Source: Patescibacteria group bacterium (lineage in GTDB: Bacteria > Patescibacteriota > Patescibacteriia > UBA9934). From it: 64,000 nt of DNA. Of this stretch, positions 618 through 33,644 are shown in pieces. The stretch is taken from positions 182,923 through 246,922 of the forward strand of contig JBAZXR010000001.1 in the NCBI GenBank assembly GCA_041659765.1. Direction: 5' to 3'. Each line of letters opens with the position of its first letter. The first letter of the stretch is position 1. The notes below the pieces were generated by a model that was not told the DNA's origin, searched no databases, and worked only from the letters and a program-made list of their open reading frames with translations. The position numbers were made by a program, and so were the translations under genes.

Positions 618-677
618 TTGGATGCCCGTTTTGCCCGACTTGCCCGTTTTGCCCTCTTCACATAAACTCAGCTCACT

Positions 678-1217
678 ATGTCCCTACTCGACGAATACAA
701 GCCAGAGTTTGAGAAAATTGTTGATCATTTGATTGATGAATTATCGGTTATCCGTACTGGTCGAGCCAGCCCGGCACTCGTTGAGAACATTCAGGTTGAA
801 GCATACGGCACTTTCCAGCCCGTGAAAGCGGTTGCTTCGATGTCCACACCCGACGCGAAGACGCTTGAGATCACGCCGTGGGACACTTCTGTTTTGAAGG
901 CTATTGAAACCGCGATTATCAAGTCCGACATCGGCATCAATCCGGTCGTGGACGGAAAAATGGTACGTTTGAACATGCCGATGATGACGGAAGAAACGCG
1001 CAAGAAAATGGTGAAGGTGATGAACGAAAAACTTGAAGACTCCCGCGTACACATTCGCAAGGTTCGCGAAGAAGCCAAAAAGAAAGTTTCCGCCATGGAA
1101 GGCGGGCAGGACGTGGTTCGCAAAGAACTCGAAGCCCTGGAAAAGATGGTGAAAGGATACGTTGAAAAGATTGACGCCGTGGGGGAGAAGAAGGAGAAAG
1201 AAGTAATGTCGATCTAG
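678..1217 (+). CDS. frr: ribosome recycling factor
   Basis: 179 aa. IRTGRASPALVENIQVEAYG and C-terminal coiled coil are typical of RRF. Confidence 0.9.
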   Translation: MSLLDEYKPEFEKIVDHLIDELSVIRTGRASPALVENIQVEAYGTFQPVKAVASMSTPDAKTLEITPWDTSVLKAIETAIIKSDIGINPVVDGKMVRLNMPMMTEETRKKMVKVMNEKLEDSRVHIRKVREEAKKKVSAMEGGQDVVRKELEALEKMVKGYVEKIDAVGEKKEKEVMSI

Positions 1218-1228
1218 CCAAACAATTT

Positions 1229-2536: not shown

Positions 2537-2538
2537 TT

Positions 2539-3810
2539 ATGTTCACCACCCACAAACTCAAAAACGGAGCGCGCGTAGTGCTTTCGCCTTACGGCGGCAC
2601 GGAAGCGGCGACAATTCTCGTCATGTTTAAAGTTGGTTCCCGAGATGAAGATTTGAAAGTGTGGGGCGGAAGCCACTTCATTGAGCACTTGATGTTCAAG
2701 GGCACAAAGAAGCGTCCAGAGACCATGGATATTACGCGGGAGCTTGACCAATACGGCGCCGAGTTTAATGCGTATACAGGCAAGGACCTGACGGCCTATT
2801 ATGTAAAAATTACGGCTGAGCGTTTGCCGGTAGCAGTTGATCTCTTGGAAGATATGCTGTTTCATTCAAAATTCGACGGCAAAGAAATGGCCAAAGAGAA
2901 GAAGGTGATTCAGGAAGAGATTAAGATGTATGAGGAAAACCCAATCATGCACCTTGAGGACATGCTTGAGGAAGCCATGTTTGACGGTCATGTGCTAGGG
3001 CGAAACATTGCTGGCACTGGCGAGACCATGACTAAGATGAAGCGTGATGACGTGATTAAATATCGCGATCAGTTTTACGTGCCGGAGAATATGGTCGTGA
3101 TTGTTTCCGGAAAAGTACCAAAAGATATTTTGAAGTTGCTCGAATCAGGTTTTGGCAAAATACCTCATGCCAAGCGGGCAATGTTTGAAAACGTATACCT
3201 GCCAGGCAAGCATCAGGCGAGTGTGCTTCGCCGTCAGGAGAAGCCGCTGGAGCAGATTCAGGTAGCGCTTGGGTTCCCCATTCCGGGCCGAGCTCATGAT
3301 GACTCTTATGCTATTAAAGTACTAGCTACTATTCTGGGCGGTACAATGAGTTCACGTTTGTTTATCCAGGTGCGCGAGAAGCGCGGGCTCTGTTACACGG
3401 TGCGAGCGAACGCCGAACAGTATGATGACGTAGGCTTGCTCTCGGTGCGCGCCGGATTGGATGCTAAGCGTCTGCCTTTGGCCGCTAAGACAATCATTGC
3501 CGAGCTCAAGAAGATGGCTAAAGACGGAGTCACTTCTAAAGAGCTGTCAGATGCCAAAGAGCACTGGCGCGGAGCTTTGACACTGCAGCTTGAAGATTCT
3601 TCCGCCCGGGCTGAATTCTTCGGCCGCCAGGAGTTGTTTGAGGGGAAGGTTGAGACGCTCGATGCTCGTATGAATAGGGTGAACGCAGTTAAGGCTGGCG
3701 ATATTAAGCGCGTGGCTCGGGAGTATTTGAATCCCGCGAAGATGTCACTGGCGGTCATTGGTCCATACAAGACGGATGCGGAAGTATTAAAGATGTTTGG
3801 AATCAAGTAG
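2539..3810 (+). CDS. M16 family zinc peptidase (pitrilysin/insulinase-like)
   Basis: 423 aa. Inverted zinc motif HFIEH...E (GGSHFIEHLMFKGT). Start codon 3 nt after glyQS stop. Confidence 0.75.
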   Translation: MFTTHKLKNGARVVLSPYGGTEAATILVMFKVGSRDEDLKVWGGSHFIEHLMFKGTKKRPETMDITRELDQYGAEFNAYTGKDLTAYYVKITAERLPVAVDLLEDMLFHSKFDGKEMAKEKKVIQEEIKMYEENPIMHLEDMLEEAMFDGHVLGRNIAGTGETMTKMKRDDVIKYRDQFYVPENMVVIVSGKVPKDILKLLESGFGKIPHAKRAMFENVYLPGKHQASVLRRQEKPLEQIQVALGFPIPGRAHDDSYAIKVLATILGGTMSSRLFIQVREKRGLCYTVRANAEQYDDVGLLSVRAGLDAKRLPLAAKTIIAELKKMAKDGVTSKELSDAKEHWRGALTLQLEDSSARAEFFGRQELFEGKVETLDARMNRVNAVKAGDIKRVAREYLNPAKMSLAVIGPYKTDAEVLKMFGIK

Positions 3811-3836
3811 GGGCGGGGCTAGCCCCGTCCGTACAT

Positions 3837-4574
3837 ATGAAATACATTGTAGCGAATTGGAAAATGAATCTCGGAATCAGGGAATCCGTAGCACTGGCAC
3901 GCGGAACACTTTTGGCGCTCCAGGGAAAGGAGATAGTGCCCGAGGTGATTTTGTGTCCGTCCGCCACGGCGCTGGCGGAGGTGCATAAGACGCTCGCGCG
4001 CACGCGGATGCATCTTGGCGCGCAGAACGTGGGTCCAGGGCGTTCTGGCGCCTTTACGGGGGAGGAGGGCGTGGCCCAGCTTGAGGATGTAGGATGTAAG
4101 TATGTCATTCTTGGCCATTCGGAGAGCAGAGCTTTGGGTGAAGGGCCGGAGACGATTGCGAAAAAAATGGCCGCAGTGTGGGAATCAGCGTCTTTGACGC
4201 CGATTCTTTGTGTGAGCGAGATGGGGGAGTTGAAATCATCGTTGAGTTTGGTTAAGCCGTCACGGAGCAAAAAATTGTTTTTAGCCTATGAGCCAACTTG
4301 GGCAATCGGCACCGGGAACCCGGCTACCCCCGCCGACGCCGTGCGCGAACTGACCGCGCTTAAAACAGAGTTGACGGCGATAGGCTTTTCAGCTGATGCA
4401 CTTGTAATGCTGTATGGCGGTTCAACTAATGCCGAGAACGCGTATTCGTACCTGCGCGAACCTGTTATTGATGGACTGCTTGTAGGCGGAGCAAGTCTGA
4501 AGGTTCAGGAGATTACCGGTATTATTAACGCTGCGCATGAGGTCATAACCGCCTCGCCTGAAATATGGTCTTAA
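3837..4574 (+). CDS. tpiA: triosephosphate isomerase
   Basis: 245 aa. IVANWKMN start, GHSESR, AYEPTWAIGTG and LYGGS signature segments. Confidence 0.9.
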   Translation: MKYIVANWKMNLGIRESVALARGTLLALQGKEIVPEVILCPSATALAEVHKTLARTRMHLGAQNVGPGRSGAFTGEEGVAQLEDVGCKYVILGHSESRALGEGPETIAKKMAAVWESASLTPILCVSEMGELKSSLSLVKPSRSKKLFLAYEPTWAIGTGNPATPADAVRELTALKTELTAIGFSADALVMLYGGSTNAENAYSYLREPVIDGLLVGGASLKVQEITGIINAAHEVITASPEIWS

Positions 4575-5335
4575 CCATTATTCTCATCTCGGTGTTCGTG
4601 CTGTCTGTGGGCGTTCTCGGCGTCCTTTTAGTGCGCAAGGCACCGAGTGTTTTAGTGATTGATCCTTCCGCCTCGAAAGATGCTAAAGCTAAGGAGTTGA
4701 AGCGTGATATTTTAAAGAAACGCCTTGAACGAGCTACGGCAGTTCCTATTAGTAGCGCGCGCGATGTGTTGGTTGCGCCTTTTGTATTTATGCAACGAGC
4801 TGTGCGGTCAGTGGCCGGCCAGCTTAAGGCGCTTGAGGATTCTTATGCCAAGCTCCAGAAAGGCGGGAAACCGGTTAATGAAGATGCTGTTCGCCAACTG
4901 TTTGAAGAATCTGAAGCTGCTTTTCGTGCCGGGAGAACAGATGACGCAGAAAAGAGGTTGATTGAGCTCATCAGCTTGAACCCAAAGTATGCTGAGGCGT
5001 ATGAGCTTTTGGGGCGTGTATATATGCAGACAAAGGACTATGCGCTCGCTCGCGAAACGTTATTGCATGTACTGAAGCTCTCGCCCAAGAACGCGAGTGT
5101 CTATGCTAGCTTAGGCGAGGTGTCGGAACTGGAGGGCAAGGTTGAGGCCGCGTACGAGGCTTATAAGAGGGCGATGGAGTTGAGCCCGAATAACCCTAAG
5201 TATTTAGATTTCTTTATTTCAGCTGCTATTACGGCGGACAATTTTGAAGAGGCTAAGGAAGCGTTGGAACGTCTGAAGGAGGTTAATCCACAAAATCAAA
5301 AGATCGCGGAATTTTCCGCGATCCTTCTCAAGTAA
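4565..5335 (+). CDS. membrane-anchored tetratricopeptide (TPR) repeat protein
   Basis: N-terminal TM helix then TPR-like repeats (AEAYELLGRVYMQTKDYALA..., ASVYASLGEV..., AYEAYKRAMELSPNN). Confidence 0.55.
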   Translation: MVLTIILISVFVLSVGVLGVLLVRKAPSVLVIDPSASKDAKAKELKRDILKKRLERATAVPISSARDVLVAPFVFMQRAVRSVAGQLKALEDSYAKLQKGGKPVNEDAVRQLFEESEAAFRAGRTDDAEKRLIELISLNPKYAEAYELLGRVYMQTKDYALARETLLHVLKLSPKNASVYASLGEVSELEGKVEAAYEAYKRAMELSPNNPKYLDFFISAAITADNFEEAKEALERLKEVNPQNQKIAEFSAILLK

Positions 5336-5343
5336 CGCGTTCG

Positions 5344-5499
5344 TTACTTTGTTTCTTTGTGCGGCGTGTGCTTCTTACACGGCTTGCAGTGCTTCAAAAG
5401 CTCAAGGCGATCCTTCAGCGTTTTCTTGTTCTTCTTGGAGCGGTAGTTCAAGGACTTACAGACCGTGCACTCCAGCTTAATGAGGTTGTCTTGGGACAT
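5344..5499 (-). CDS. rpmG: 50S ribosomal protein L33
   Basis: Hand-translated 51-aa ORF, below the track cutoff: [51 protein letters not shown]. Cys-x2-Cys...Cys-x2-Cys zinc ribbon typical of L33. Confidence 0.75.
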
Positions 5500-5556
5500 A
5501 AATGGGGTTCAGTGAAATCGGGGGAATAGTAAGGAAATTGTCTAATCTTGTCAATC

Positions 5557-5631
<75 letters not shown>

Positions 5632-5718
5632 GTAAAAAGCAGGGAAATTGTAACAGGGACCCCACAGGTAGTCAATTGCAATGCTTAAAGGGCTGTGATA
5701 CGATTTTGCCACTTTTAG

Positions 5719-5794
5719 GCCGACATAGCTCAGCTGGTAGAGCAACGGTTTTGTAAACCGTAGGTCGTCGGTTCAAGCCCGACTGTCGGCTCCA
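5719..5794 (+). tRNA. tRNA-Thr (anticodon TGT), CCA encoded
   Basis: Acceptor GCCGACA/TGTCGGC, D-arm GCTC-AGCTGGTA-GAGC, anticodon stem ACGGT/ACCGT with loop TTTGTAA, T-arm GTCGG-TTCAAGC-CCGAC. Confidence 0.85.
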
Positions 5795-5824
5795 TAAAGT
5801 TTTGATAGGTAGTATTGCTGATTT

Positions 5825-5910
5825 GGGTAGATACTCAAGTGGTCAACGAGGGGAGACTGTAAATCTCCTGGAGCAATCCTTCGTAGGTTCGAATCCTGCT
5901 CTACCCACCA
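5825..5910 (+). tRNA. tRNA-Tyr (anticodon GTA), long variable arm, CCA encoded
   Basis: Acceptor GGGTAGA/TCTACCC, anticodon stem GGAGA/TCTCC with loop CTGTAAA, long variable arm, T-arm GTAGG-TTCGAAT-CCTGC. Confidence 0.8.
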
Positions 5911-25732: not shown

Positions 25733-26887
25733 ATGAAATCATTACGTATCTTCATGGTAGTTGCTCTTGCGGCGTTTGGCCTGATGGGTCAGGTCCGTCC
25801 TGTCTTCGCCGCCAGTGCGGGCGATGTCGTTGTTTGTCCGGAGTCCAGTTCCGTATATTATCTTGGTGAAGATGGGAAACGGTACGTTTACCAGAATGAG
25901 CAGACCTATTTTAGTTGGTATGACAATTTCGACATGGTGCAGACGGTTAGTTGCCGAGACCTGGCGGCATTTCCGCTCGCCGGGGTTGTTTGGTACCAGG
26001 CAGGAACATCGCTCGTAAAAATCCCAAGCGCCCCGACTGTATATGCGGTTGAACCTAGCGGTGTCTTGCGCCCGCTAGCGAGCGAGGCGGAAGCGATCAC
26101 GCTTTTCGGACCGGACTGGGCCGACCGCGTGGACGATGTTTCGGAAGCTTTCTGGCCGCAGTATTCGGTTGGTAATAAGCTCGAGGCCGGCGAAATTCCG
26201 GAGGGGACTATTTTAAAAGATGATGTTGGCGATTTGTTCCGATACCAAGATTTAGATAACGACACTCAGGACGAAGCTGTAGAGTTTGACGAGCTCGATG
26301 ATGATCACGTGCTGGACAATTTTGCGCTTGACCTTGAAGAAACGGCGGCGGAGCTTGATATTAAGATTGAACGGGTTGAGCTTGAGGGATTGTCTGAGAC
26401 ATTGATTGATCTGCTGCGCTCAGCGCTCGACGAAGATGTCTTTGTACCAGGGGGTGAAGAAGTTGAGGTGATGGATTTGAACGAATTGGATAAAGAGGCA
26501 GACAATGATAACGACGGGCTTTCCAATGAGGAAGACCTTGATGACGATGACGATGGCAAGCTCGACAGAGAGGATGCTGATCCGCTGGACCATGATAACG
26601 ATGGGCTAGATGACGCGGCGGATAGTGACGATGACGAGGACGGAATTCGGGACGTCAACGACAGCGACCTGCTCGATCATGATAACGACGGGTTAGATGA
26701 TGAGGAGGATGCGGATGATGACGGGGATGGTATTAAGGACGTTAGCGACAGTAAGGACGCTGACCACGATAACGACGGGTTGGAGGATGCGGAGGATCTT
26801 GACGATGACGGGGATGGGGTCAAGGATGTGGAAGATGCGGATGACGATGAGAGCGAATCAGCGGAAACTGAAGACAGTATCAACTGA
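25733..26887 (+). CDS. secreted protein: the shared domain at the N-terminus, then a poly-acidic thrombospondin-type-3-like Ca-binding repeat tail
   Basis: Signal peptide, then SVYYLGEDGKRYVYQNEQTYFSWYDNF...LVKIPSAPTVYAVEPSGVLRPL...LFGPDWADRVDDV. C-terminal half DHDNDGLDDxxDxDDDxDGxxDV repeats. Confidence 0.55.
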   Translation: MKSLRIFMVVALAAFGLMGQVRPVFAASAGDVVVCPESSSVYYLGEDGKRYVYQNEQTYFSWYDNFDMVQTVSCRDLAAFPLAGVVWYQAGTSLVKIPSAPTVYAVEPSGVLRPLASEAEAITLFGPDWADRVDDVSEAFWPQYSVGNKLEAGEIPEGTILKDDVGDLFRYQDLDNDTQDEAVEFDELDDDHVLDNFALDLEETAAELDIKIERVELEGLSETLIDLLRSALDEDVFVPGGEEVEVMDLNELDKEADNDNDGLSNEEDLDDDDDGKLDREDADPLDHDNDGLDDAADSDDDEDGIRDVNDSDLLDHDNDGLDDEEDADDDGDGIKDVSDSKDADHDNDGLEDAEDLDDDGDGVKDVEDADDDESESAETEDSIN

Positions 26888-26950
26888 TAGCATGACGGAG
26901 GCGGTTAGGCAGAAAATTCAGGCTACGCCCCTCTGTAGTCACCTGACCAC

Positions 26951-27010
26951 AAAACCATCAGCCGTAAGGCTGATGGTTTTGTGGTAGGGACTAGTGCGTG
27001 TCATTAGAGC
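26951..27010. repeat. island repeat copy A (A-run, GNRA hairpin CCATCAGCC-GTAA-GGCTGATGG, conserved box)
   Basis: ...ttttgtggtagggactagtgcgtgtcattagagc; most diverged copy. Confidence 0.6.
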
Positions 27011-27061
27011 TGTTAACCAGTTTTCTACGCCTTAGGAACGAAGAGCTTCAAAATAAGTAAA

Positions 27062-27778
27062 TTAAGTATTTTCCGAATTAGGCAGGGAGATTTCTTTTAA
27101 CCGCGATTCTTGTGGGCTTGGTGTGTGCTCAGTAAACCAGGCGATTGCCAGCTGAGATACTTGTTCCAGGGCGCCTGGTTCCTCAAAGAGATGAGTCGCT
27201 CCTGGAATAATCGATAATTGTTTTACTCCGGCCAACTGATTATATGAGTCCCGATTTAGGGCGAGGACTTCATCATCAGCTCCGCCAATAATGAAGAGGG
27301 TTGGCACAGTGACTTGTGAAAGACTGTCGCCGGCTAAGTCTGTACGTCCGCCGCGTGAAACAACGGCTGAGACTTCCTGTGGACTTTGGGCGGCTACAAT
27401 GAGCGCCGCGGCCGCACCGGTGCTGGCGCCGAACAGTCCGAATGGTAAATGTTTGGTGTTTTCTTGGGCGCGTAACCAGGTTAGCGTTTGAGCTAGTCGC
27501 CTGACGAGGAGCTCGATATCAAATCTAGTGGCGTACGTTTTGTCCTCAGCCTCGGTGAGTAGATCAAAGAGCAGACTCCCGATACCTGTTTGATATAGAC
27601 TATCAGCCACGAATTCGTTGCGCGGACTGAGCCTACTACTGCCGCTACCATGCACAAATACCACGAGTAGCGTGGCTTTAGGCGGGAGACGAATAATTCC
27701 TTCCAGCGACTGTCCGTCAACGGGAATTGAGATGTTTGATTTAATTGGTCTCGACATATTCTTTGAGCGCTTGTCCAA
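27062..27778 (-). CDS. alpha/beta hydrolase (dienelactone hydrolase-like)
   Basis: VVFVHGSGSS, nucleophile elbow GLFGASTGAAAAL, C-terminal His region. Confidence 0.6.
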   Translation of the reverse strand: MDKRSKNMSRPIKSNISIPVDGQSLEGIIRLPPKATLLVVFVHGSGSSRLSPRNEFVADSLYQTGIGSLLFDLLTEAEDKTYATRFDIELLVRRLAQTLTWLRAQENTKHLPFGLFGASTGAAAALIVAAQSPQEVSAVVSRGGRTDLAGDSLSQVTVPTLFIIGGADDEVLALNRDSYNQLAGVKQLSIIPGATHLFEEPGALEQVSQLAIAWFTEHTPSPQESRLKEISLPNSENT

Positions 27779-28634
27779 GCAGCGGAGCTACGGAAATAAC
27801 CGAAACCCAAGGCATATTTGTTCTCGGCGCGAGCGTATCAGTGACGATAATTTCCTGGACGCCAACATCCTTGAGCTCTTTCCACGCTTCACCCGTAAAT
27901 AGCCCATGCGTTACCATGATAAGGATTTCTTCCACACCCTTGTCTTGCAGCTGACGGCAGGCTTGAAGAAGCGTAGCCCCTGTATCGAGTTGGTCGTCAA
28001 TTAGCACGCAGCGCTTGCCCACCTCGCCCACCAGATCGTGCACGGTAACGCCGTCCGGTGTCCTTTCTTTTTTAAAGTACGCCACGGGATTTGCTGATTG
28101 AAGGGCGCGAGCGACGGCTTCGCATCGAGGAATAGCGCCATTATCTGGAGCAACCAGCGTGGCATCTGTCCAATTTTTTTTCCGTATTTCTTCGCCGAAG
28201 AGAGGAGCAGGGGAGAGGGAGACGAGTTCGACTGGCATTAGCTCACGATCGTGTTCGCTGTGAAGATCTATGGTGATGATCGTATCAATGCCTGACGCCT
28301 TAGCAAGAGAGCCGACCCAGGCTGTGGTCAGACTCAACCCAGACTTCACTTTGTCATGCCGCGTATAAGCAGCGAAAGGGAGAATTGCGAGCACGCTTTT
28401 CGCTCCCTCTTTTTTCAGTGTATGGGCCGCGAGTAACGTGCCGAACAGGGAATCGTCTGGTGGGGTGAATGAACCGAATAAGAGAGCGGCTTCTCCGTTT
28501 ACGGGAGAGCAATTAGTTATGTACATCTCCCGATTATCGTAACGCCGCAACTCGAGCGTTCCAGGCTTATAAAGTGATGACTTACTGAGAACACGTGACA
28601 GCGGGTGCAGTATTTCGGTTGAAAAAAATTTCAT
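27741..28634 (-). CDS. prs: ribose-phosphate pyrophosphokinase (PRPP synthetase)
   Basis: FAAYTRHDK (AYxRQD-like), PRPP-binding VLIDDQLDTGATL, two-domain PRTase fold. Confidence 0.75.
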   Translation of the reverse strand: MKFFSTEILHPLSRVLSKSSLYKPGTLELRRYDNREMYITNCSPVNGEAALLFGSFTPPDDSLFGTLLAAHTLKKEGAKSVLAILPFAAYTRHDKVKSGLSLTTAWVGSLAKASGIDTIITIDLHSEHDRELMPVELVSLSPAPLFGEEIRKKNWTDATLVAPDNGAIPRCEAVARALQSANPVAYFKKERTPDGVTVHDLVGEVGKRCVLIDDQLDTGATLLQACRQLQDKGVEEILIMVTHGLFTGEAWKELKDVGVQEIIVTDTLAPRTNMPWVSVISVAPLLGQALKEYVETN

Positions 28635-29263
28635 AGAGCAAGATCACTCATCATTTCTATCACTTCTTCGTCGGATACCTGGCTGAAGTTTTTATAGTAA
28701 AAACCAATTGATCCTTGAAATTGAAGCGGGCGCTTGAGAACAATGAGGCGATCAACCAGTTTTTCTAGTTCTCTAATAGTATCTCTAGGGGCTACAGGCA
28801 CGGCCAGTACGACGGCTGACGGTTCCTTGGCTCTCGCTTCATCAATTGCCGCTTTCATGGTTAAACCGGTAGCTATTCCATCGTCCACAATGATCGCGGT
28901 TTTGCCTTTGACATCAACTGGCGTTCGGTCAGCCAGGTATTTGACGCGCCTTCTTGCCGCCTCGCCGCGCTGCCGTTCTACCTCGGCCTCAAACCAGGCC
29001 GGATCTATCCGTGAAACTTCTAATTCATTTTTTATGACTTTCCCTTTTTCTGAAACGGACGCAATGGCATATTCCGGGTTATCCGGGTGCCCAATTTTTC
29101 TTGGAATGAGCAGGTCTAGCGGTGCATGGAGATGTTGGGCGACAATTTTGCCGAGCGCTACGCCGCCTCGGGGGAGTGCAAATACAACTACGGGTTTGTC
29201 CTTGTATTCCTCCAGGCTCGTGGCGAGGAGAAACCCCGCCGCGTTTCTATCCGCAAAAGGCAT
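28631..29263 (-). CDS. type I phosphoribosyltransferase family protein
   Basis: PRPP-binding loop TAIIVDDGIATGLTMKAAI. 210 aa. Confidence 0.6.
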   Translation of the reverse strand: MPFADRNAAGFLLATSLEEYKDKPVVVFALPRGGVALGKIVAQHLHAPLDLLIPRKIGHPDNPEYAIASVSEKGKVIKNELEVSRIDPAWFEAEVERQRGEAARRRVKYLADRTPVDVKGKTAIIVDDGIATGLTMKAAIDEARAKEPSAVVLAVPVAPRDTIRELEKLVDRLIVLKRPLQFQGSIGFYYKNFSQVSDEEVIEMMSDLAL

Positions 29264-29271
29264 ATTAATTA

Positions 29272-29661
29272 CTAGGCATTCGTCACTTCACAGTAGCCCG
29301 TGTAGCCACCCTCTAGGTTACGGATATTCTTATAGCCAAGTTTGAGGAGTGCTTGTCCGCAGAGTGCTGAACGGCCACCAGTTGCGCACTGCACAACGAT
29401 TGGGGCATTTTTGTCCGGTACAATTTCTGAAATTTTGAATTCCACTAAGCCGCGGGGGAGGTGAACGGCGCCTTGAATATGCCCCGCATCCCACTCGTTC
29501 CGCTCCCGAACATCCAGCAGTGTGTGAGCCTCTCCTCTCTCGCGAAGTGCTAAATAATCCTGACAAGTGATGGCGGGAACTTCTGCTTTTGCCTGCGCTA
29601 CCAAATCTTGTGCGGTCATTTCCATAGGGATGATAGTTATTATGCCTGAAGTGTACCCCAT
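29272..29661 (-). CDS. rhodanese-domain sulfurtransferase
   Basis: 129 aa. Active-site loop VVQCATGGRSA. ERNEWDAGHIQGA signature. Confidence 0.7.
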   Translation of the reverse strand: MGYTSGIITIIPMEMTAQDLVAQAKAEVPAITCQDYLALRERGEAHTLLDVRERNEWDAGHIQGAVHLPRGLVEFKISEIVPDKNAPIVVQCATGGRSALCGQALLKLGYKNIRNLEGGYTGYCEVTNA

Positions 29662-29680
29662 AGCTTATGTATTCGGTAAA

Positions 29681-29748
29681 ACAAAAACACCAGCCGTGCG
29701 GCTGATGGGTTTGTGGCAGGGGCTAGTACGTGACGTTAGAACTTTAAC
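29681..29748. repeat. island repeat copy B
   Basis: acaaaaacaccagccgtgcggctgatgggtttgtggcaggggctagtacgtgacgttagaactttaac. Confidence 0.65.
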
Positions 29749-29825
29749 TTGGGAATCTTCGCGGGAGCCTCTTCATTTTTCTTGACTATTCTCAATATTT
29801 CTGATACGATATTTCGTTACATGGA

Positions 29826-30134
29826 GTGAAAATGATCAAGAAAATCGGCAAGGTAACGCGCGTGGCGAGCAGCCCCGCAGGCGACAATCGATCGGTATTT
29901 ACCAAGCTCAAACTGACGGGGTTCAGCCACACGGTGTCGGCCTATCACTTGCCCCGGATTAATGTGGGCGAGAACGTGGCCATCTACTCGGAGGGCGATT
30001 CTTGGAAGCAGGAGGAAGATGACGAGGGGAGCGTCCAGCCTTGCCAGATCGAGATTCTCGGCAAGGGGGGAGAGGTGTTGTTCACCTGGTTCCGTACCTT
30101 TGTTGCCGTCAATCGCTACATGGAAGAAAAGTAA
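29826..30134 (+). CDS. hypothetical protein
   Basis: 102-aa ORF with plausible start; no recognisable motif. Confidence 0.3.
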   Translation: MKMIKKIGKVTRVASSPAGDNRSVFTKLKLTGFSHTVSAYHLPRINVGENVAIYSEGDSWKQEEDDEGSVQPCQIEILGKGGEVLFTWFRTFVAVNRYMEEK

Positions 30135-30239
30135 CTACAGCACACGACATCCAGGAGACCGCCAACGAAGCGCGGCGCTCCCCCGGGTGTCGTTCTTTAT
30201 TTAGAGTGTGACGATACGGCATTTTCAGATTAATCGAAG

Positions 30240-30527
30240 TTAGAACTCTTTCCGTACTCGGTTCATGAGCATTTTATACACCACGGAACGATGCTCGATT
30301 AGGTAGATATTGATCTTTTTGCCTTTGATGCGAAAAATGACGCGATAATCCCCGACACGGAGTTTTCGATCACCGCTTTTCGAGTGCCGAAGGGGAATCC
30401 CAAATACCTCCGGCCTCGTCATCAACTTTGTTTCGATCGCGCTTTTGGTTCGTTTCCTGATTGCCGCACCCAACTTCGGAATATCTTCTTTTACAACGAG
30501 CGGATGATAGGAGACGGCAAAACTCAT
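30240..30527 (-). CDS. type II toxin, RelE/ParE family
   Basis: YHPLVVKEDIPKL...RKLRVGDYRVIFRIKGKKINIYLIEHRSVVY matches the RelE/ParE consensus. 4-nt overlap with the upstream antitoxin gene. Confidence 0.65.
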   Translation of the reverse strand: MSFAVSYHPLVVKEDIPKLGAAIRKRTKSAIETKLMTRPEVFGIPLRHSKSGDRKLRVGDYRVIFRIKGKKINIYLIEHRSVVYKMLMNRVRKEF

Positions 30528-30745
30528 ACCCATGCATCATCATGGGAGATAAATTTGCCCTTTACCTTTTCACGTTTATTTACAAGTTCGACGAACACCG
30601 CATCTTCCTCGATTTCGAGCGCGGCGCGAACGAGCTCCAAAGTCTTGGCAGCAACTGACGTCTGATCACGAACCGCGAGCTTTTCAAGAGCTCGACCCAT
30701 GTCCGCCGTGACTGAAAGATTAATTCGCTGTTTGGTAGTGGGCAT
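30524..30745 (-). CDS. ribbon-helix-helix antitoxin (CopG/ParD-like)
   Basis: MPTTKQRINLSVTADMGRALEKLAVRDQTSVAAKTLELVRAAL. Sits directly upstream of the toxin. Confidence 0.55.
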   Translation of the reverse strand: MPTTKQRINLSVTADMGRALEKLAVRDQTSVAAKTLELVRAALEIEEDAVFVELVNKREKVKGKFISHDDAWV

Positions 30746-30800
30746 AGAATAATGAAAGTGTAACACCGCAGTAACACCTGGTCAAACAGTTTATCACAAC

Positions 30801-30868
30801 AAAAAATCCAGCCATTGCTTGCTGAATGTTTTGTGGTAGGGGTTACTCTGCGACGTTAGAACTCTAAC
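30801..30868. repeat. island repeat copy C
   Basis: aaaaaatccagccattgcttgctgaatgttttgtggtaggggttactctgcgacgttagaactctaac. Confidence 0.6.
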
Positions 30869-30888
30869 TCTGGTTATGGCTTCGTAGA

Positions 30889-31890
30889 TTAATAGAATTT
30901 GACCTGTACTGCGGAAGTCGTAGGAGGAATAGAGACAAGCGCCCGACCACCGCCCGGTAAGCTGAAGGAAATTCCTGGGGCAGATGTTTGCAGATCTGTG
31001 GGCCAAGGGGGAGCGGTCCCTCCATCAATGACCGCACAGGGCGCTGTTTGGGGTTTTGGAAGCTGGAACAATGCTGACTGCCCTTCAGAGGTTACGACGA
31101 CTCCCTCTATGGTAGTGGTTTTCTGAATGTCGTATTTTCCGTCTTGTGTAATGGCCTCCTCGTACTGGCAAGCATCAGGAGTTGCTTGAAGCGCGATGGT
31201 GTAGGACGGATATCCAGGCTTGATGAGCGTGAGGTCTTCAACTGCTCCCCAGTCTTCGGCGTACGTGGACCGGATTGTTTCTTTCCCATTCTGGTAAACG
31301 ATGTCGGTATAGTCCGCTCCTTCTGAATAGCCCTCCACCAGTTGTAAAATAAACGCAGACTCACTTTTCGTATATGACCAATCAATAAATGGATACGTAG
31401 TAAGATCGTCTTGCGTGTAGACGACGGATTCTCTGCCGAGCGAGTCTTTTTTGACGAGGATAAATTGTTTATCAGTCACTCGCCCTTCCCATGTGGAGTC
31501 ACCAAAAGACGCGATCTTGACTAGGCTATTAACATAATAGTCATTCGGGTGGGGTTCGGGCGAGGTTTTGGTCGTGGTCTTGGGAGATATTGCCGGCCGG
31601 GAATAAGCCGGGTTCGCGGGAGCGCTAACATGTTTATTATTTGAAGGAAAGACACGAGATATGGATCCAGCAATTGCAATGGTCATCAGAATTACCGACA
31701 GGATAATGATTACAAGATTGCGCTGACGAGACACCTTTGTCTTCATATTATGCGAGGGTAGCAAGAAAAACAAAAACCGGCCAGCAATTATACTGGTCGG
31801 GCTTTGGCAGGGGCTAGTACGCGACGTTAGAACTTTAATCATCCTCTCATCGCATTCCACTGCTGAATATCTTCGTCGCTCTTGCACCAA
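30889..31890 (-). CDS. membrane-anchored/secreted hypothetical protein
   Basis: 333 aa. N-terminal TM (LVIIILSVILMTIAIAG), Ser/Pro-rich linker, beta-rich body. No known motif. Confidence 0.4.
   Translation of the reverse strand: MVQERRRYSAVECDERMIKVLTSRTSPCQSPTSIIAGRFLFFLLPSHNMKTKVSRQRNLVIIILSVILMTIAIAGSISRVFPSNNKHVSAPANPAYSRPAISPKTTTKTSPEPHPNDYYVNSLVKIASFGDSTWEGRVTDKQFILVKKDSLGRESVVYTQDDLTTYPFIDWSYTKSESAFILQLVEGYSEGADYTDIVYQNGKETIRSTYAEDWGAVEDLTLIKPGYPSYTIALQATPDACQYEEAITQDGKYDIQKTTTIEGVVVTSEGQSALFQLPKPQTAPCAVIDGGTAPPWPTDLQTSAPGISFSLPGGGRALVSIPPTTSAVQVKFY
31771..31838. repeat. island repeat copy D (abuts stop codon of 31839..32159)
   Basis: caaaaaccggccagcaattatactggtcgggctttggcaggggctagtacgcgacgttagaactttaa. 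A-run and hairpin identical to the sequence just 3' of tRNA-Trp. Confidence 0.7.
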
Positions 31891-32159
31891 TATCCGCCAA
31901 TTACTTCAGACATCCAGGCGTCGTCGGCTCCTATTCGACGATATTGTTTATCGGGGTGAAATAGCTCGCATTTTAACCGTCGTATTACTGAGTATTGATA
32001 GCGTCCACCTGAGCCGGGGAAGATGGTCATTCTTCCGTCTGCCATGAGCGACCAAAAGAACCCGAGATCAACTAGAATAATGAAAGTTAAAGTAATGAAG
32101 GTCGTAGTAAGGACCGTTGCGCCTATCAGGCCACCGATTAGTTGAAGTCGACTTTTCAT
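31839..32159 (-). CDS. small membrane-anchored protein, paralog 1 (FHPxKxYRxIG-DAW-GxYWC family)
   Basis: 106 aa. TM then GGRYQYSVIRRLKCELFHPDKQYRRIGADDAWMSEVIGGYWCKSDEDIQQW. Paralog of 32565..32846. Confidence 0.5.
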   Translation of the reverse strand: MKSRLQLIGGLIGATVLTTTFITLTFIILVDLGFFWSLMADGRMTIFPGSGGRYQYSVIRRLKCELFHPDKQYRRIGADDAWMSEVIGGYWCKSDEDIQQWNAMRG

Positions 32160-32174
32160 ACTTGATGAATAATA

Positions 32175-32477
32175 TCACTCAAGCGTATACCGCTCGTCCA
32201 AATTTACTTTGAGTTTTGAAAGCACGGGATTTGGTAGGTTCTCTTGAACCCGCTCGATCTGCGCACCCGGCACAACAGAAAGAATGTAGTTTTTCATCGG
32301 CGACGCATCAGATCCGGTCAGTACCGCGAATCGAACGATCACTCCGTCCTCGTCATTTTCTACTAAAAGATTCTCGCCGAGTTGATTGGCAAATTTTCGT
32401 AACCGACCGCGGAGCATCACACCCTGGAGGGAAGTTGATGATGTCATTTCGTAGATATCCCAATGAAGAAGCTCCAT
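32175..32477 (-). CDS. acylphosphatase-like domain protein, putative
   Basis: LQGVMLRGRLRKFANQLGENLLVENDEDGVIVRFAVLTG resembles acylphosphatase VQGVxFR...GxVxNxxDGxV. Confidence 0.35.
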   Translation of the reverse strand: MELLHWDIYEMTSSTSLQGVMLRGRLRKFANQLGENLLVENDEDGVIVRFAVLTGSDASPMKNYILSVVPGAQIERVQENLPNPVLSKLKVNLDERYTLE

Positions 32478-32500
32478 ATTATCGATAAGCCTATCATAAA

Positions 32501-32564
32501 AGAAAAGACCAGCAATTTCTGCTGATCTTGTCTTGGCAGGGGCTAGTGCGTGACGTTAGAACTA
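32501..32564. repeat. island repeat copy E (abuts stop codon of 32565..32846)
   Basis: agaaaagaccagcaatttctgctgatcttgtcttggcaggggctagtgcgtgacgttagaacta. Confidence 0.65.
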
Positions 32565-32846
32565 TCATGGCCCATGCGACGACCTGAATCGCTCTATATC
32601 GTTGTCGCTCATACACCAGTAGCTGCCGTTTATTGTATCGGTTGACCAGGCGTCTTCGCCGATTAATCGGTATTCCTTCCCTGGGTGAAAGACTTTGCAG
32701 GCCAACATATTTCTCAATGAGAATATGTATCTCGGCGGGCCACCAAGTATGACGACTGGGAAGAAAAAATCCAAAAAGAAATACATACCCGCCAGCAATA
32801 TCATGGCAACTATAAGAGCTCGTTTGAGGTTTTTGCTGAATTTCAT
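32565..32846 (-). CDS. small membrane-anchored protein, paralog 2
   Basis: 93 aa. TM then GGPPRYIFSLRNMLACKVFHPGKEYRLIGEDAWSTDTINGSYWCMSDNDIERF. Confidence 0.5.
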   Translation of the reverse strand: MKFSKNLKRALIVAMILLAGMYFFLDFFFPVVILGGPPRYIFSLRNMLACKVFHPGKEYRLIGEDAWSTDTINGSYWCMSDNDIERFRSSHGP

Positions 32847-32904
32847 AGTGTGCCCGTTTATTGATTATAACAAAAACCGGCCAGCTTGACGACTGGTCGG
32901 GCTT

Positions 32905-32979
32905 TGGCAGGGGAACTGGGATTCGAACCCAGAACTTTTCTTTTGGAGAGAAAAATGATAGCCATTTCACTATTCCCCT
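32905..32979 (-). tRNA. tRNA-Trp (anticodon CCA), CCA encoded
   Basis: Reverse complement AGGGGAA-TA-GTGA-AATGGCTA-TCAT-T-TTTCT-CTCCAAA-AGAAA-AGTT-CTGGG-TTCGAAT-CCCAG-TTCCCCT-G-CCA. All stems pair (one G-U in the D stem). Followed on the minus strand by a hairpin and T-run. Confidence 0.8.
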
Positions 32980-33644
32980 TTAGTTTCGTTTGCGAATGCA
33001 TGGTATATGGCGGCGATGGTTTTTGCAACCTTCGCGTCATGATATCTGATGGAAATGCAGCCTTCGTAGTCAGGATGGATTTGAAGGCCGGAGTGTGGTT
33101 TATGGAAAGATTTATTGAATTGACCTTGTGGGATGTTGGTTAATTGAGACCAAAATAGCTTTTGCGTCTTTTCATTGTGATACGAGTGCAGGTGCATGAG
33201 TACTCTGAACTTTCTTTCATCTAGTTCAAATCCGCTTCTCATGGCTTTCAAAAAAGAGACGATTAGTTCCGGGTCAGAGTTTGTAAAGCGAAGCGTAGAA
33301 AAATTAGTTTTTTCTCCCTCGCACCAGTAAAGTAATGCGGTTGTTAATCGCCAAAAATTAGCGGAGGCAGATTTTAATATCCTATTTACATCTTTTTTGG
33401 CAGCTACCTCTCTAGTTCGTTGCTCAAAGGTGCGTCTGGCTTTGCTTGCGGCTCTTCCTTTTTCTCGCCCACTCAGCTGTGCTTGTTCGAGTGTAAGTCT
33501 GATCGATTTTGGGAGTACGATTTTACGTACCCAGAGTGAGACGGTACTTTTTGCAAGACCGGTTTTATGAGCGATGGTTCCAATTGAATCTCCTTTCTTA
33601 CGCAGGGTCGACACAAGGTTCTTTATTTTTTTATCGTATGCCAT
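32970..33644 (-). CDS. HTH-domain protein of unknown function adjacent to tRNA-Trp (possible recombinase/homing-type protein)
   Basis: Probable start MAYDKKIKNLVSTLRKKGDSIGTIAHKTGLAKSTVSLWVRK (HTH). C-terminal 150 aa unassigned. 3' end overlaps the tRNA 5' end by about 10 nt. Confidence 0.4.
   Translation of the reverse strand: MAYDKKIKNLVSTLRKKGDSIGTIAHKTGLAKSTVSLWVRKIVLPKSIRLTLEQAQLSGREKGRAASKARRTFEQRTREVAAKKDVNRILKSASANFWRLTTALLYWCEGEKTNFSTLRFTNSDPELIVSFLKAMRSGFELDERKFRVLMHLHSYHNEKTQKLFWSQLTNIPQGQFNKSFHKPHSGLQIHPDYEGCISIRYHDAKVAKTIAAIYHAFANETKGE

What the first reader, a model, noticed from the sequence alone, without database searches (positions are those of the whole stretch)
26951..32980. 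Cassette-like accretion array anchored at tRNA-Trp: five gene modules, each bounded by a 60-nt box plus hairpin that re-uses the tRNA 3' end
Structure of the repeat:
- Directly 3' of tRNA-Trp (minus strand) lie CCCCTGCCA, AAGC, a GC hairpin (CCGACCAG...CTGGCCGG) and a T-run.
- Those last 12 nt of tRNA plus trailer (CCCCTGCCAAAG) recur downstream at 32501-32564, 31771-31838, 30801-30868, 29681-29748 and 26951-27010. The hairpin and T-run recur with them.
- In the copies the tRNA body is replaced by a conserved 21-nt box (plus strand CTAGTGCGTGACGTTAGAACT).
- Copies D and F share the A-run, hairpin and GCTTTGGCAGGGG exactly.

Module contents. The repeats cut the region into modules of 0.4-2.7 kb:
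- A to B: rhodanese, PRTase, prs, alpha/beta hydrolase.
- B to C: hypothetical, RelE/ParE toxin, RHH antitoxin.
- C to D: secreted 333-aa protein.
- D to E: small-membrane-protein paralog plus acylphosphatase-like.
- E to tRNA: second paralog.
- In D and E the box abuts the stop codon (AGAACT-TTAA|TCA, AGAACTA|TCA).

Interpretation:
- This resembles serial site-specific integration at a tRNA 3' end: duplicated target plus conserved element terminus.
- It also resembles an integron-like cassette array with attC-like sites.
- No tyrosine or serine recombinase is recognisable. The only candidate is the HTH protein whose 3' end overlaps the tRNA.
- The G-U pairs in the hairpins work on the plus strand but become A-C mismatches on the minus strand, so the element may act as plus-strand RNA or DNA.
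Basis: seen in the sequence. Interest (0 to 1): 0.75.

Follow-up and report, generated by a model that had tools for sequence, protein, structure and literature searches.

The report
Serine-recombinase integration scars at tRNA-Trp
The five repeats are scars left by mobile elements that inserted one after another at the end of the tRNA-Trp gene of a Patescibacteria (CPR) bacterium; the conserved "box" is the cut-off last few codons of the elements' own serine recombinase gene.

Summary
Five direct copies of [terminator hairpin + TGGCAGGGG + 21-nt box] lie within 6 kb of tRNA-Trp and nowhere else in the window.

The box is not an attC or an RNA motif. Read on the + strand in frame with TGG-CAG-GGG, it encodes WQGLVRDVRTL. 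The 15 copies from five sources differ mostly at synonymous or third-codon positions.

That peptide is the native C-terminal tail of a large Patescibacteria family of large serine recombinases (LSRs; more than 3,000 hits). Their attP site sits inside the 3' end of their own gene.
- Most family members are integrated, and their ORFs run antisense into a tRNA.
- A circular 10.7-kb relative has the intact tail.
- Two intact integrated relatives at tRNA-Trp carry the orphaned tail at the far end, behind the displaced host terminator.

Each integration therefore gives the tRNA a new terminator and leaves box + 9-nt tRNA end + old terminator distally. Repeated events build the array.

Relatives share the flanks but carry different modules. 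Some have an empty site.

No recombinase or replication backbone survives in the window, so whether the small modules are decayed remnants or cassettes moved in trans is open.

The neighbouring HTH protein has a LAGLIDADG-like fold and is not the recombinase.

The parts
32905..32979 (-). tRNA-Trp (anticodon CCA). It is the integration target; its last 9 nt, CCCCTGCCA (32905-32913), are the core repeated in every junction.
   Evidence: ARAGORN; Rfam tRNA model, 62.9 bits.
32871..32913 (-). Junction F (attL-type): tRNA 3' end plus the terminator hairpin that now serves the tRNA. Its stems are identical to those of hairpin D.
   Evidence: (family D3); terminator-like site 32896-32881 on the minus strand.
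32500..32566 (.). Junction E: hairpin 32500-32534, core 32534-32542, box 32543-32566. The + strand reads WQGLVRDVRTI.
31771..31837 (.). Junction D: hairpin 31771-31806, core 31805-31813, box 31814-31837 (WQGLVRDVRTL).
30795..30866 (.). Junction C, decayed. The core is TGGTAGGGG and the box TTACTCTGCGACGTTAGAACT (W*GLLCDVRTL). Hairpin C travels with the RHH-RelE module in relative L007.
29681..29746 (.). Junction B: hairpin 29681-29714, core 29714-29722, box 29723-29746 (WQGLVRDVRTL). Box, core, hairpin and about 25 nt of leader are 88.5% identical to metagenome contig L003, where a different gene follows.
26942..27014 (.). Junction A, the most distal and most decayed. The core is TGGTAGGGA and the box has 3 of 21 mismatches (6 of 30 with the core). 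It carries a long perfect hairpin.
30236..30249 (.). Partial box (GAAGTTAGAACTCT on the + strand) overlapping the stop codon of the ParE/RelE toxin gene. Only the outer half of the box survives.
   Evidence: (family D11).
32565..32846 (-). Module E-F cargo: 93-aa small membrane protein, a paralog of 31839-32159. An extended -10 promoter-like site lies in the leader right after hairpin F.
31839..32477 (-). Module D-E cargo: acylphosphatase-like protein (32175-32477; weak Pfam hit, E 0.0015) and a 106-aa membrane-protein paralog (31839-32159).
30889..31749 (-). Module C-D cargo: 286-aa protein with an N-terminal transmembrane or signal segment and no Pfam family.
29826..30766 (.). Module B-C cargo: RHH-type antitoxin (30524-30766, minus), ParE/RelE toxin (30240-30533, minus) and a convergent 100-102-aa ORF (29826/29833-30134, plus). 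The toxin-antitoxin part is the only module shared with relative L007 (84% nt identity).
27062..29661 (-). Module A-B cargo: rhodanese (29272-29661), phosphoribosyltransferase (28631-29263), ribose-phosphate pyrophosphokinase (27741-28634) and alpha/beta hydrolase (27062-27778).
32970..33644 (-). Context only, not part of the mechanism: a 224-aa protein with a resolvase-type HTH and a single LAGLIDADG-like domain. Its 3' end overlaps the tRNA 5' end, and this synteny is conserved in five other genomes.

Best explanation
The array records repeated integration, at the 3' end of tRNA-Trp, of elements from one Patescibacteria family that encode a large serine recombinase (LSR).

How the family is built:
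- attP lies inside the last ~25 codons of the LSR gene, which runs antisense to the tRNA.
- In LSR reading direction the order is: LSR body, a short stretch that is also a hairpin (P' arm), TGG-CAG-GGG (the complement of the tRNA's CCCCTGCCA and the region containing the crossover), then a tail W-x-G-h-x-[DE]-[DE]-[VF]-[RG]-T-h... (h = hydrophobic residue), which is the P arm.

What one integration does:
- The hairpin end of the element joins to the intact tRNA. On the tRNA strand the hairpin acts as the tRNA's new intrinsic terminator.
- The LSR reading frame now runs on into the antisense tRNA.
- The orphaned tail (the box), a 9-nt copy of the tRNA end and the previous terminator are left at the far end of the element.

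Each further integration at the tRNA pushes older insertions outward. This gives box-core-hairpin junctions in direct orientation between blocks of cargo genes.

Shown: what the box is; the family's attP/attL/attR anatomy in relatives; variable occupancy of the locus.
Inferred: that the window's type-1 junctions were made the same way; that new arrivals enter next to the tRNA; and that the recombinase and replication backbones were later lost, since none remains in the window.
For: (1) The box has codon structure.
- In the frame TGG-CAG-GGG, the 15 copies (window A-E, L001 x2, L002, L003 x2, L004, L007 x4) read WQGLVRDVRTL or conservative variants.
- In the 12 non-degenerate copies, differences fall 3/3/15 on codon positions 1/2/3.
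- The next codon is Leu written four ways: TTA, CTT, TTG, CTA.

(2) The box is joined in frame to a recombinase gene.
- In L004 the box continues an ORF whose preceding 67 codons are 90% identical to the C-terminus of LSR P0171.
- phmmer with that ORF hits the C-termini of ~510-aa LSRs.

(3) The LSR family behaves as the model requires.
- More than 3,149 hits, mostly Patescibacteria, carry Resolvase + Recombinase + Zn_ribbon_recom domains.
- Of 120 tails inspected, 75 are tRNA-antisense peptides (for example SWQGRRESNPRQRFWRP for tRNA-Trp). Another 21 stop within 3 residues of the core.
- About 7 keep native tails, such as WQGLADDFGTFDW..., DWRGCWNEVRTYL... and AWQGIVEDIRTN....

(4) A free form exists. 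L015 is a 10.7-kb contig with a 30-nt terminal overlap, consistent with a circle. It carries an intact LSR with TGGCAGGGG inside the ORF.

(5) Intact integrated elements show the predicted ends. L019 (9.5 kb) and L014 (6.75 kb) sit at tRNA-Trp. The LSR reads into the tRNA at one end; at the other end lie sequence upstream (a clear terminator hairpin in L019) + TGGCAGG(G/A)G + the orphaned tail.

(6) The window's type-1 box and the verified type-2 tail align without gaps at the DNA level.

(7) Occupancy of the locus varies between relatives.
- L007 (flanking protein 74% identical) shares the HTH gene, tRNA-Trp and the distal D-rich gene. It has four different modules and shares only RHH-RelE.
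- L008 and L013 have no box.
- L002 has one 1.1-kb insertion, and L001 has more than 5.6 kb of genes before its box, at the locus flanked by the same GIY-YIG gene.
- L009-L012 have a 5'-truncated LSR reading into tRNA-Trp in the same W-Q-G frame.

(8) The box is far better conserved than its surroundings. Window E and L002 differ at 1 of 30 positions, although the tRNA-Trp genes differ widely (by eye roughly 60% identical) and the flanking protein is only 48% identical between the window and L008, an Uhrbacteria relative with the same GIY-YIG flank as L002.

(9) The same architecture occurs at tRNA-Asp with an LSR in cis. In L021, two copies of that LSR's own tail bracket a 0.8-kb gene.
Against: - No LSR, replication gene or remnant of either is detectable in the window array, L007, L003 or L002 (tblastn; Pfam; L005 gene table).
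- No intact LSR with exactly the type-1 tail was found among 5.8 billion proteins. The link rests on L004's remnant and on homology to type-2 and other verified tails.
- All five backbones would have to be lost while about 100 nt of junction were kept each time. Simple decay does not predict this.
- The crossover position is not mapped.
- Standard LSRs do not use attL as a target, so repeated integration at an occupied tRNA needs explaining.
- Box decay does not rise steadily with distance from the tRNA (B is intact, C is decayed).
- GC content gives no foreign signal.
- The rest of the 897-kb genome could not be searched.
Confidence: 0.8

Rival explanations
1. The modules are non-autonomous cassettes. 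Each box-core-hairpin junction is a complete attP-like site, and an LSR encoded elsewhere inserts and excises backbone-free circles at tRNA-Trp. That would be an integron-like cassette system run by a serine recombinase. This refines the best explanation rather than contradicting it.
For: - Every junction keeps about 33 nt on the box side and about 60 nt on the hairpin side, and cargo starts immediately outside.
- The same hairpin plus leader is joined to different cargo: window B against L003 (88.5% over 87 nt; sequences), and window D against F (family D3).
- Modules of 0.4-2.7 kb have promoter-like leaders and their own terminators.
- L021 has a 0.8-kb one-gene module bracketed by tail copies between the tRNA and an intact LSR element.
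Against: - No circular cassette and no trans-acting LSR was seen in this genome.
- The only module shared by the window and L007 could be vertical inheritance, because its nucleotide identity is similar to that of the flanks.
- In L021 the second junction has no hairpin arm.
- The codon-structured variation shows the boxes came from coding LSR genes, not from sites evolving on their own.
Confidence: 0.25
2. The array arose by local tandem duplication of the tRNA terminator region and neighbouring genes, followed by divergence. No mobile element was involved.
For: Hairpins D and F are nearly identical, the two small membrane proteins are paralogs, and the leaders of D and F are 75% identical over 72 nt.
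Against: - It does not explain a box that replaces the tRNA body.
- It does not explain why the box is near-identical in lineages whose orthologous proteins are 48% identical.
- It does not explain variation concentrated at synonymous sites.
- It does not explain why the box matches recombinase tails.
- Modules are unrelated in content, and relatives carry different ones.
Confidence: 0.05
3. The box plus hairpin is a generic 3'-UTR or terminator-associated RNA motif, or an integron attC-like site recognised as folded single-stranded DNA.
For: It follows stop codons closely in D and E. The hairpins look like intrinsic terminators. GTTAGAA resembles the integron GTTRRRY core.
Against: - It is absent from the other 58 kb of the window.
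- It occurs only twice in 185,579 representative genomes. One hit is about 1 kb from tRNA-Trp; the other has the same GIY-YIG flank, with no tRNA inside the 8 kb retrieved.
- There is no Rfam match.
- Copy B does not follow a same-strand gene.
- The box is unpaired, with no complementary R' site.
- No tyrosine recombinase is present.
Confidence: 0.02
4. The adjacent HTH/LAGLIDADG-like protein drives the rearrangements, either by double-strand-break homing or as a novel recombinase.
For: Its gene overlaps tRNA-Trp in every relative examined. Its fold resembles homing endonucleases.
Against: - The same gene-tRNA pair occurs with no box or array (L008, L013).
- The family has more than 700 members across Patescibacteria lineages in which no box was found.
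- It has no recombinase fold.
- The LSR explanation accounts for the box exactly.
Confidence: 0.03

Closest known systems
Tandem arrays (accretion) of integrative genetic elements at tRNA genes, including tycheposon islands of Prochlorococcus and CIME-type decayed elements
   Same: An intact tRNA at one end, with direct repeats of its 3' fragment between blocks of cargo. Newer elements push older ones outward, decayed integrase-less remnants persist, and occupancy varies between relatives (tycheposon preprint 10.1101/2020.12.28.424599; Mageeney et al. 2020, PMC7192596). The CIME comparison rests on my own knowledge.
   Different: - Only 9 nt of tRNA are repeated.
- The conserved part of the repeat is recombinase coding sequence, not tRNA.
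- The enzyme family is a large serine recombinase. 910 of 937 tycheposons use tyrosine recombinases, and in 2020 serine integrases were described as 'not known for targeting tRNA genes'.
- Modules are very small (0.4-2.7 kb) and all lack backbones.
- The host is a CPR bacterium.
Large serine integrases of phages and integrative elements (Bxb1, phiC31, A118 type)
   Same: Relatives carry Resolvase + Recombinase + Zn-ribbon proteins of about 510 aa. The int gene lies next to attP, the att sites are short, and HTH_17 genes that could be directionality factors are present.
   Different: - attP is inside the integrase reading frame, so integration swaps the enzyme's C-terminal tail for a peptide encoded by antisense tRNA.
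- The P' arm is at once coding sequence and the replacement terminator of the tRNA.
- The target is the extreme 3' end of a tRNA.
- Repeated integration at an occupied site is implied, which canonical LSRs do not perform.
SSV-type archaeal integrases whose gene is split by integration into a tRNA (my own knowledge; an archaeal tyrosine-recombinase review, PMC8371274, was listed but not read)
   Same: attP lies within the integrase gene, so integration into a tRNA gene separates part of the integrase coding sequence onto the far end of the element.
   Different: Those are tyrosine recombinases split near the middle, which inactivates the gene. Here a serine recombinase loses only about 12-35 C-terminal codons, and the ORF stays open into the tRNA.
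Integron cassette arrays
   Same: A directional array of small modules of one or a few genes, each ending in a conserved recombination-site-like repeat, anchored at one fixed site.
   Different: There is no IntI, no attI and no attC fold. The repeat is half recombinase tail and half terminator, and the anchor is a tRNA gene.

Membership tests
Tandem integrative-element array at a tRNA gene | Intact tRNA at one end and direct-repeat copies of its displaced 3' fragment at element boundaries | tested here: met
   CCCCTGCCA (variants in A and C) recurs five times in direct orientation downstream of tRNA-Trp.
Tandem integrative-element array at a tRNA gene | An integrase gene inside each element | tested here: not met
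   No recombinase domain in any window ORF tested and no tblastn remnant. The feature is met only in relatives L014, L019, L016 and L021, with remnants in L009 and L004.
Tandem integrative-element array at a tRNA gene | Presence/absence polymorphism of elements between related genomes with conserved flanks | tested here: met
   Window versus L007; L008 and L013 empty, L002 single, L001 large.
Tandem integrative-element array at a tRNA gene | A free circular form carrying attP | tested here: inconclusive
   Found for a type-2 relative (L015, 30-nt terminal overlap, intact LSR). Not found for the window's type-1 elements or for any window module.
Large serine recombinase att system | Recombinase with Resolvase + Recombinase + zinc-ribbon domains associated with the sites | tested here: inconclusive
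   Absent from the window. Present in cis at homologous junctions in L014, L019, L016 and L021, and the box equals the C-terminal coding tail of this family.
Large serine recombinase att system | Short (about 40-50 bp) attP/attB with a central 2-bp crossover and recombination by the enzyme alone | not testable with these tools
   Conserved sequence spans about 33 nt on the box side. Core differences (TGGCAGGAG at attR against TGGCAGGGG at attL in L014) suggest the crossover lies at or before TGGCAGG. No biochemical test was possible.
Integron | IntI tyrosine recombinase and attI next to the array | tested here: not met
   No tyrosine recombinase domain in the window ORFs tested.
Integron | attC: imperfect palindrome with paired R''/R' (RYYYAAC...GTTRRRY) core sites | tested here: not met
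   Only the terminator hairpin folds. The box has no complementary partner downstream.
Generic terminator or REP-like intergenic repeat | Dispersed copies after many unrelated genes across the genome | tested here: not met
   Zero copies outside 26.9-32.6 kb in the 64-kb window. Two hits in 185,579 genomes: one about 1 kb from tRNA-Trp, the other at a locus with the same GIY-YIG flank. The rest of the source genome was not available.
Tycheposons | tRNA-anchored islands built by integrase-carrying elements with replication modules, leaving partial tRNAs and decayed remnants | tested here: inconclusive
   The architecture is analogous, and relatives carry a Phage_CRI replication gene plus an LSR. 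Homology to tycheposon proteins was not tested. The recombinase class differs from most tycheposons.
LAGLIDADG homing endonuclease (for the neighbouring HTH protein only) | LAGLIDADG alpha-beta-beta-alpha-beta-beta-alpha fold with catalytic acidic residues | tested here: inconclusive

The most novel reading that the evidence does not exclude
Patescibacteria may possess a cassette-capture system run by a large serine recombinase. In this reading the 3' end of tRNA-Trp (and of other tRNAs, such as tRNA-Asp in L021) plays the role of an integron attI. Backbone-free modules of one to four genes, each carrying a full attP made of a recombinase-tail box and a terminator hairpin, would be inserted, excised and shuffled in trans. 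Every insertion would automatically supply a terminator for the tRNA and a promoter-bearing leader for the cargo.
Probability: 0.25. Interest if true: 0.85.

Novelty: new variant of a known kind. Interest (0 to 1): 0.66.

Why it matters
- It explains an odd repeat exactly and turns it into a marker. A 30-nt scar (recombinase tail plus tRNA end) records past integrations even after the element has gone.
- It exposes a very large family of tRNA-targeting serine integrases in CPR bacteria. In four literature searches I found no description of it. These organisms have tiny genomes and their routes of gene exchange are poorly known.
- The family has unusual design features. attP is embedded in the integrase's own 3' coding end. 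One att arm doubles as protein sequence and as the replacement terminator of the target tRNA. The C-terminal tail is exchanged on integration, which could itself affect directionality.
- Short, natural attP/attB pairs with a universally conserved tRNA target could interest genome engineers.
- The backbone-free mini-modules raise a testable possibility: a cassette system driven by a serine recombinase.

Tried and rejected
- **Rfam search of the window**: only tRNAs.
- **tRNA-like minihelix or split-tRNA reading of box + CCA.** No complementary 5' acceptor strand and no T-loop; rejected by inspection.
- **Group II intron 5' end (GTGCG) or domain VI.** The copies are only 21 nt and GTACG variants are common; rejected.
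- **dif/Xer or tyrosine-recombinase core.** I saw no inverted-repeat arms.
- **IS200/IS605 or IS91-type ends.** No HUH gene, and only one end carries a hairpin.
- **attC fold.** Not present.
- **L004 ORF fragment as a query in the word-indexed protein search**: found only itself. BLASTP against the L009 recombinase remnant found nothing. Only the exhaustive phmmer search made the link.
- **IMG/VR scans** for the box and for LSR P0142: no close match, so there is no evidence that the elements are recognised viruses.
- **GC profile**: flat and uninformative.
- **tblastn of LSR and backbone proteins against the window and L007**: no remnants.
- **Weak similarity between hairpin-encoded peptides and LSR C-termini**: not convincing and not used.
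- **RelE-stop partial box as evidence for a crossover inside the box.** Noted but not resolved.

Full report
**1. Observation**

The window holds tRNA-Trp(CCA) at 32905-32979 on the minus strand. Five direct copies of a ~63-nt unit lie to its left: A 26949-27011, B 29681-29743, C 30801-30863, D 31772-31834 and E 32501-32563.

On the + strand each unit reads: A-run, hairpin, T-run, TGGCAGGGG (the complement of the tRNA's last 9 nt), then CTAGTRCGYGACGTTAGAACT.

- The 21-mer box has 4 matches at up to 3 mismatches, against 0.00 expected.
- A 12-mer from it has 5 matches at up to 1 mismatch, against 0.25 expected.
- All matches lie inside the array. The fifth is a partial box on the RelE stop codon (30236-30249).
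- Nothing similar occurs in the other 58 kb.

Hairpins B-F are independently flagged as minus-strand terminator-like sites.

Most hairpins are as stable or more stable on the tRNA-sense strand. Only D and F (A marginally) favour the + strand. The "plus-strand only" remark therefore does not generalise.

**2. Source and relatives**

The window comes from a Patescibacteria MAG with an 897-kb contig. A Logan contig from SRR18595301 is identical to it.

The box pattern was scanned against one genome for each of 185,579 species and hit only twice.
- L002: the box lies about 1 kb downstream of tRNA-Trp, in the same relative orientation.
- L001: a Candidatus Uhrbacteria contig, where the box follows more than 5.6 kb of genes.
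- Both have the same downstream flank, a GIY-YIG gene.

JGI metagenomes gave L003 (two full copies and one core-plus-hairpin copy) and L004. In every case the box is preceded by a hairpin and TGGCAGGGG.

**3. The locus varies between relatives**

The gene upstream of the tRNA encodes a 224-aa HTH protein with more than 700 homologs. Its neighbourhoods in other genomes were fetched.

| Locus | Relation to window | State of the tRNA-Trp site |
|---|---|---|
| L007 | HTH protein 74% identical | Shares HTH gene + tRNA-Trp (73% nt), the D-rich protein gene bounding the array (85.5%) and genes beyond. Four other modules with four recognisable box-core copies plus one degenerate core + hairpin. Only RHH-RelE shared (84%) |
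| L008 | Uhrbacteria | tRNA-Trp followed directly by the GIY-YIG gene; no box |
| L013 | Uhrbacteria | No box |

In L007, hairpin C accompanies the RHH-RelE module, while the adjoining box differs from the window's.

The site is therefore a hot spot with variable occupancy.

**4. What the box is**

Read on the anti-tRNA strand in frame with TGG-CAG-GGG, the box translates to W-Q-G-L-V-R-D-V-R-T-L. The 15 copies (alignment A2) vary as follows:

| Codon | Variants seen |
|---|---|
| Val | GTA, GTG, GTC |
| Arg or Asn | CGT, CGC (Arg); AAT, AAC (Asn) |
| Asp | GAC, GAT |
| Val or Ile | GTT, GTG (Val); ATT (Ile) |
| Thr | ACT, ACC |
| Leu | CTA, TTA, CTG |
| Following codon (Leu) | TTA, CTT, TTG, CTA |

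- In the 12 non-degenerate copies, differences fall 3/3/15 on codon positions 1/2/3.
- In L004 the frame is continuous with an upstream ORF. Its 67 preceding codons are 90% identical to the C-terminus of a 508-aa large serine recombinase, P0171.
- An exhaustive phmmer search with that ORF hit the C-termini of ~510-aa proteins. These have Resolvase, Recombinase and Zn_ribbon_recom domains.

**5. The recombinase family**

P0128 retrieves more than 3,149 relatives at E ≤ 1e-20. Those that carry names are mostly Patescibacteria. I inspected 120 C-terminal tails.
- 75 are peptides obtained by translating a tRNA antisense. Examples are ...SWQGRRESNPRQRFWRP for tRNA-Trp, and others such as ...AWGGQRESNP and ...DWRGRRDSNPRPSA.
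- 21 stop within three residues of the W-x-G core.
- About seven keep a non-tRNA tail: WQGLADDFGTFDWVSLYKEL..., DWRGCWNEVRTYLRQVSVPL, DWRGLRDDFRTFNW... and AWQGIKELVRNF... Fragments P0124 (AWQGIVEDIRTN...) and P0123 (AWGAVVEEVRTV...) show the same pattern.

The window's WQGLVRDVRTL belongs to this tail family. Most members are therefore seen integrated, with their ORFs running into a tRNA. The native tail is what lies beyond the crossover in attP.

**6. Anatomy confirmed in complete elements**

- **L015** is a 10,695-bp contig with a 30-nt terminal overlap, which is consistent with a circle. It carries XRE and M78 regulators, a Phage_CRI replication gene, Bro-N, HTH_17, a methyltransferase and LSR P0142. 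TGGCAGGGG lies inside the ORF, followed by the intact tail.
- **L019** holds a 9.5-kb element at tRNA-Trp. At one end the LSR reads through a hairpin-encoding stretch into the tRNA. At the other end lie the host terminator hairpin + TGGCAGGGG + CTAGCGGACGAGTTCGGAACTTTTGACTGG (WQGLADEFGTFDW).
- **L014** shows the same for a 6.75-kb element. Its distal tail is identical in protein to the second, variant copy in L001.
- **L009-L012** carry a 5'-truncated LSR reading ...VILS-WQG-GRGSNP... into tRNA-Trp.
- Type-1 (window) and type-2 (verified) tails align without gaps at the DNA level. Both resemble the antisense T-arm of the tRNA, as expected for related att arms.
- On the tRNA strand, the LSR's hairpin-encoding stretch is a stem followed by a T-run (L014: GACGGTCA...TGACCGTTTTTCG). 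It therefore supplies the tRNA's terminator after integration.

**7. Mechanism proposed for the window**

Each junction consists of a terminator hairpin, the 9-nt tRNA end and an orphaned recombinase tail.

Serial integrations next to the tRNA would produce exactly the observed direct array. Each element contributes the hairpin on its tRNA-proximal side and the box on its distal side.

The linkage of hairpin C with RHH-RelE in two genomes fits this, because the adjoining boxes differ.

The codon-structured differences between boxes imply that the copies descend from diverged, functional recombinase genes rather than from one local duplication.

Inferred, not shown:
- the crossover position (core differences in L014 place it at or before TGGCAGG);
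- the order of arrival;
- how an occupied site is re-used.

**8. What is unexplained**

No recombinase, replication gene or remnant exists in the window array, L007, L003 or L002.

All junctions nevertheless keep about 100 nt of att-like sequence, with cargo beginning immediately outside.
- The same hairpin plus leader is joined to different cargo: B versus L003 and D versus F.
- The leaders contain promoter-like sites.
- At tRNA-Asp in L021, two copies of the resident LSR's own tail bracket a 0.8-kb gene. This lies between the tRNA and an intact LSR element.

These facts leave open that the small modules are cassettes mobilised in trans. I put this at about 25%. The plainer reading is decayed elements.

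No intact LSR with exactly the type-1 tail was found.

**9. The neighbouring HTH protein**

A confident model (pLDDT 95) shows an N-terminal three-helix HTH, a long helix and an alpha/beta domain.
- The HTH matches resolvase and Tc3 HTHs.
- Its gene abuts tRNA-Trp in six genomes, including those without any box.

It is therefore a conserved neighbour and not the array's recombinase.

**10. Comparison with what is known**

Tandem arrays of integrative elements at tRNA genes are well described. So are islands built by successive integrations that leave partial tRNAs and decayed elements (tycheposons).

What differs here:
- a large serine recombinase, a class stated in 2020 not to be known for tRNA targets;
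- attP embedded in the recombinase's own 3' coding end, so that integration swaps its tail;
- an att arm that serves as both coding sequence and terminator;
- uniformly backbone-free mini-modules;
- the CPR host.

Four literature searches found no description of this family.

I classify the finding as a new variant of a known kind.

Noticed in passing
window 32970-33644 (-); L007 568-1242; L008 10001-10669; L009 10001-10633; L013 6593-7210: A 205-225-aa protein family (more than 700 members in Patescibacteria) with a resolvase-type HTH and a single LAGLIDADG-like domain (invariant WCEGxK, FTNSD, HxYH). In all six genomes examined it is encoded immediately upstream of tRNA-Trp, with its stop codon at or inside the tRNA 5' end. 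Its function is unknown.
   Followed up: partly
Proteins P0128-P0258; L016 5302, L019 11495, L014 11495: Gene callers routinely extend these recombinase ORFs 3-25 codons into the antisense strand of tRNA genes. The annotated C-termini (…DSNPR…, …ESNPRQRFWRP…) are integration artefacts, or genuinely swapped tails. They reveal the target tRNA of each element.
   Followed up: partly
L021 10001-14470: The same family forms an array at tRNA-Asp. LSR P0134 carries an R-M system (C5 methylase + NgoFVII-type endonuclease). It is followed by a 0.8-kb metallophosphatase gene bracketed by two copies of the LSR tail, then an M23 peptidase module, then tRNA-Asp and tRNA-Met.
   Followed up: partly
L015 1-10695: Apparently circular 10.7-kb element (30-nt terminal overlap). 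It carries an LSR, XRE/M78 regulators, a Phage_CRI rolling-circle-type replication gene, Bro-N, HTH_17, an N6/N4 methyltransferase and a gene of about 900 aa spanning the contig ends. It may be an integrative plasmid or satellite of CPR bacteria.
   Followed up: partly
L004 1194-2021: A visibly G+C-rich 275-aa ORF sits inside an otherwise moderate-GC Patescibacteria-type contig, just inside a type-1 tail. It looks like cargo acquired from a high-GC donor.
   Followed up: no
window 25733-26887 (+), repeats 26501-26829: The gene bounding the array encodes a 384-aa secreted protein with four 87-nt tandem repeats. These encode Asp-rich DxDNDG-type (calcium-binding-like) units. Its ortholog in L007 (85.5% nt) lies inside that genome's array, between two box copies.
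   Followed up: partly
L001 5676-5760; L002 5785-5870; L013 7290-7330; L008 11590-11612: Uhrbacteria-type loci share extra conserved pieces downstream of tRNA-Trp. These are the hairpin ACGTCGGTCGCGACCGACGT, a second partial core CCTGCCA followed by another hairpin, and the motif GGYACCAGAGACGTGACCTGT. They may be older, nested scars or the native attB arm.
   Followed up: no
window 32494-32970 (-): The public gene call on the identical Logan contig includes a 158-aa ORF that runs through junction E, the real 93-aa gene (in another frame), hairpin F and the tRNA. It is almost certainly spurious.
   Followed up: no
window 177-5910 versus L008 16.3-20.7 kb, L016 7.6-14 kb, L019 13.9-20.3 kb: The block Sortilin-like/RRF/class II aminoacyl-tRNA synthetase (tRNA-synt_2b)/M16 peptidase/TIM/TPR plus tRNA-Thr/Tyr/Thr is syntenic in several relatives. 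There it lies within a few kb of tRNA-Trp, whereas in the window it is 27 kb away. This indicates further rearrangement around the tRNA-Trp hot spot.
   Followed up: no
window 27741-28634 (-): A ribose-phosphate pyrophosphokinase gene, normally housekeeping, lies inside module A-B between two junctions. Whether it is the genome's only copy could not be checked.
   Followed up: no
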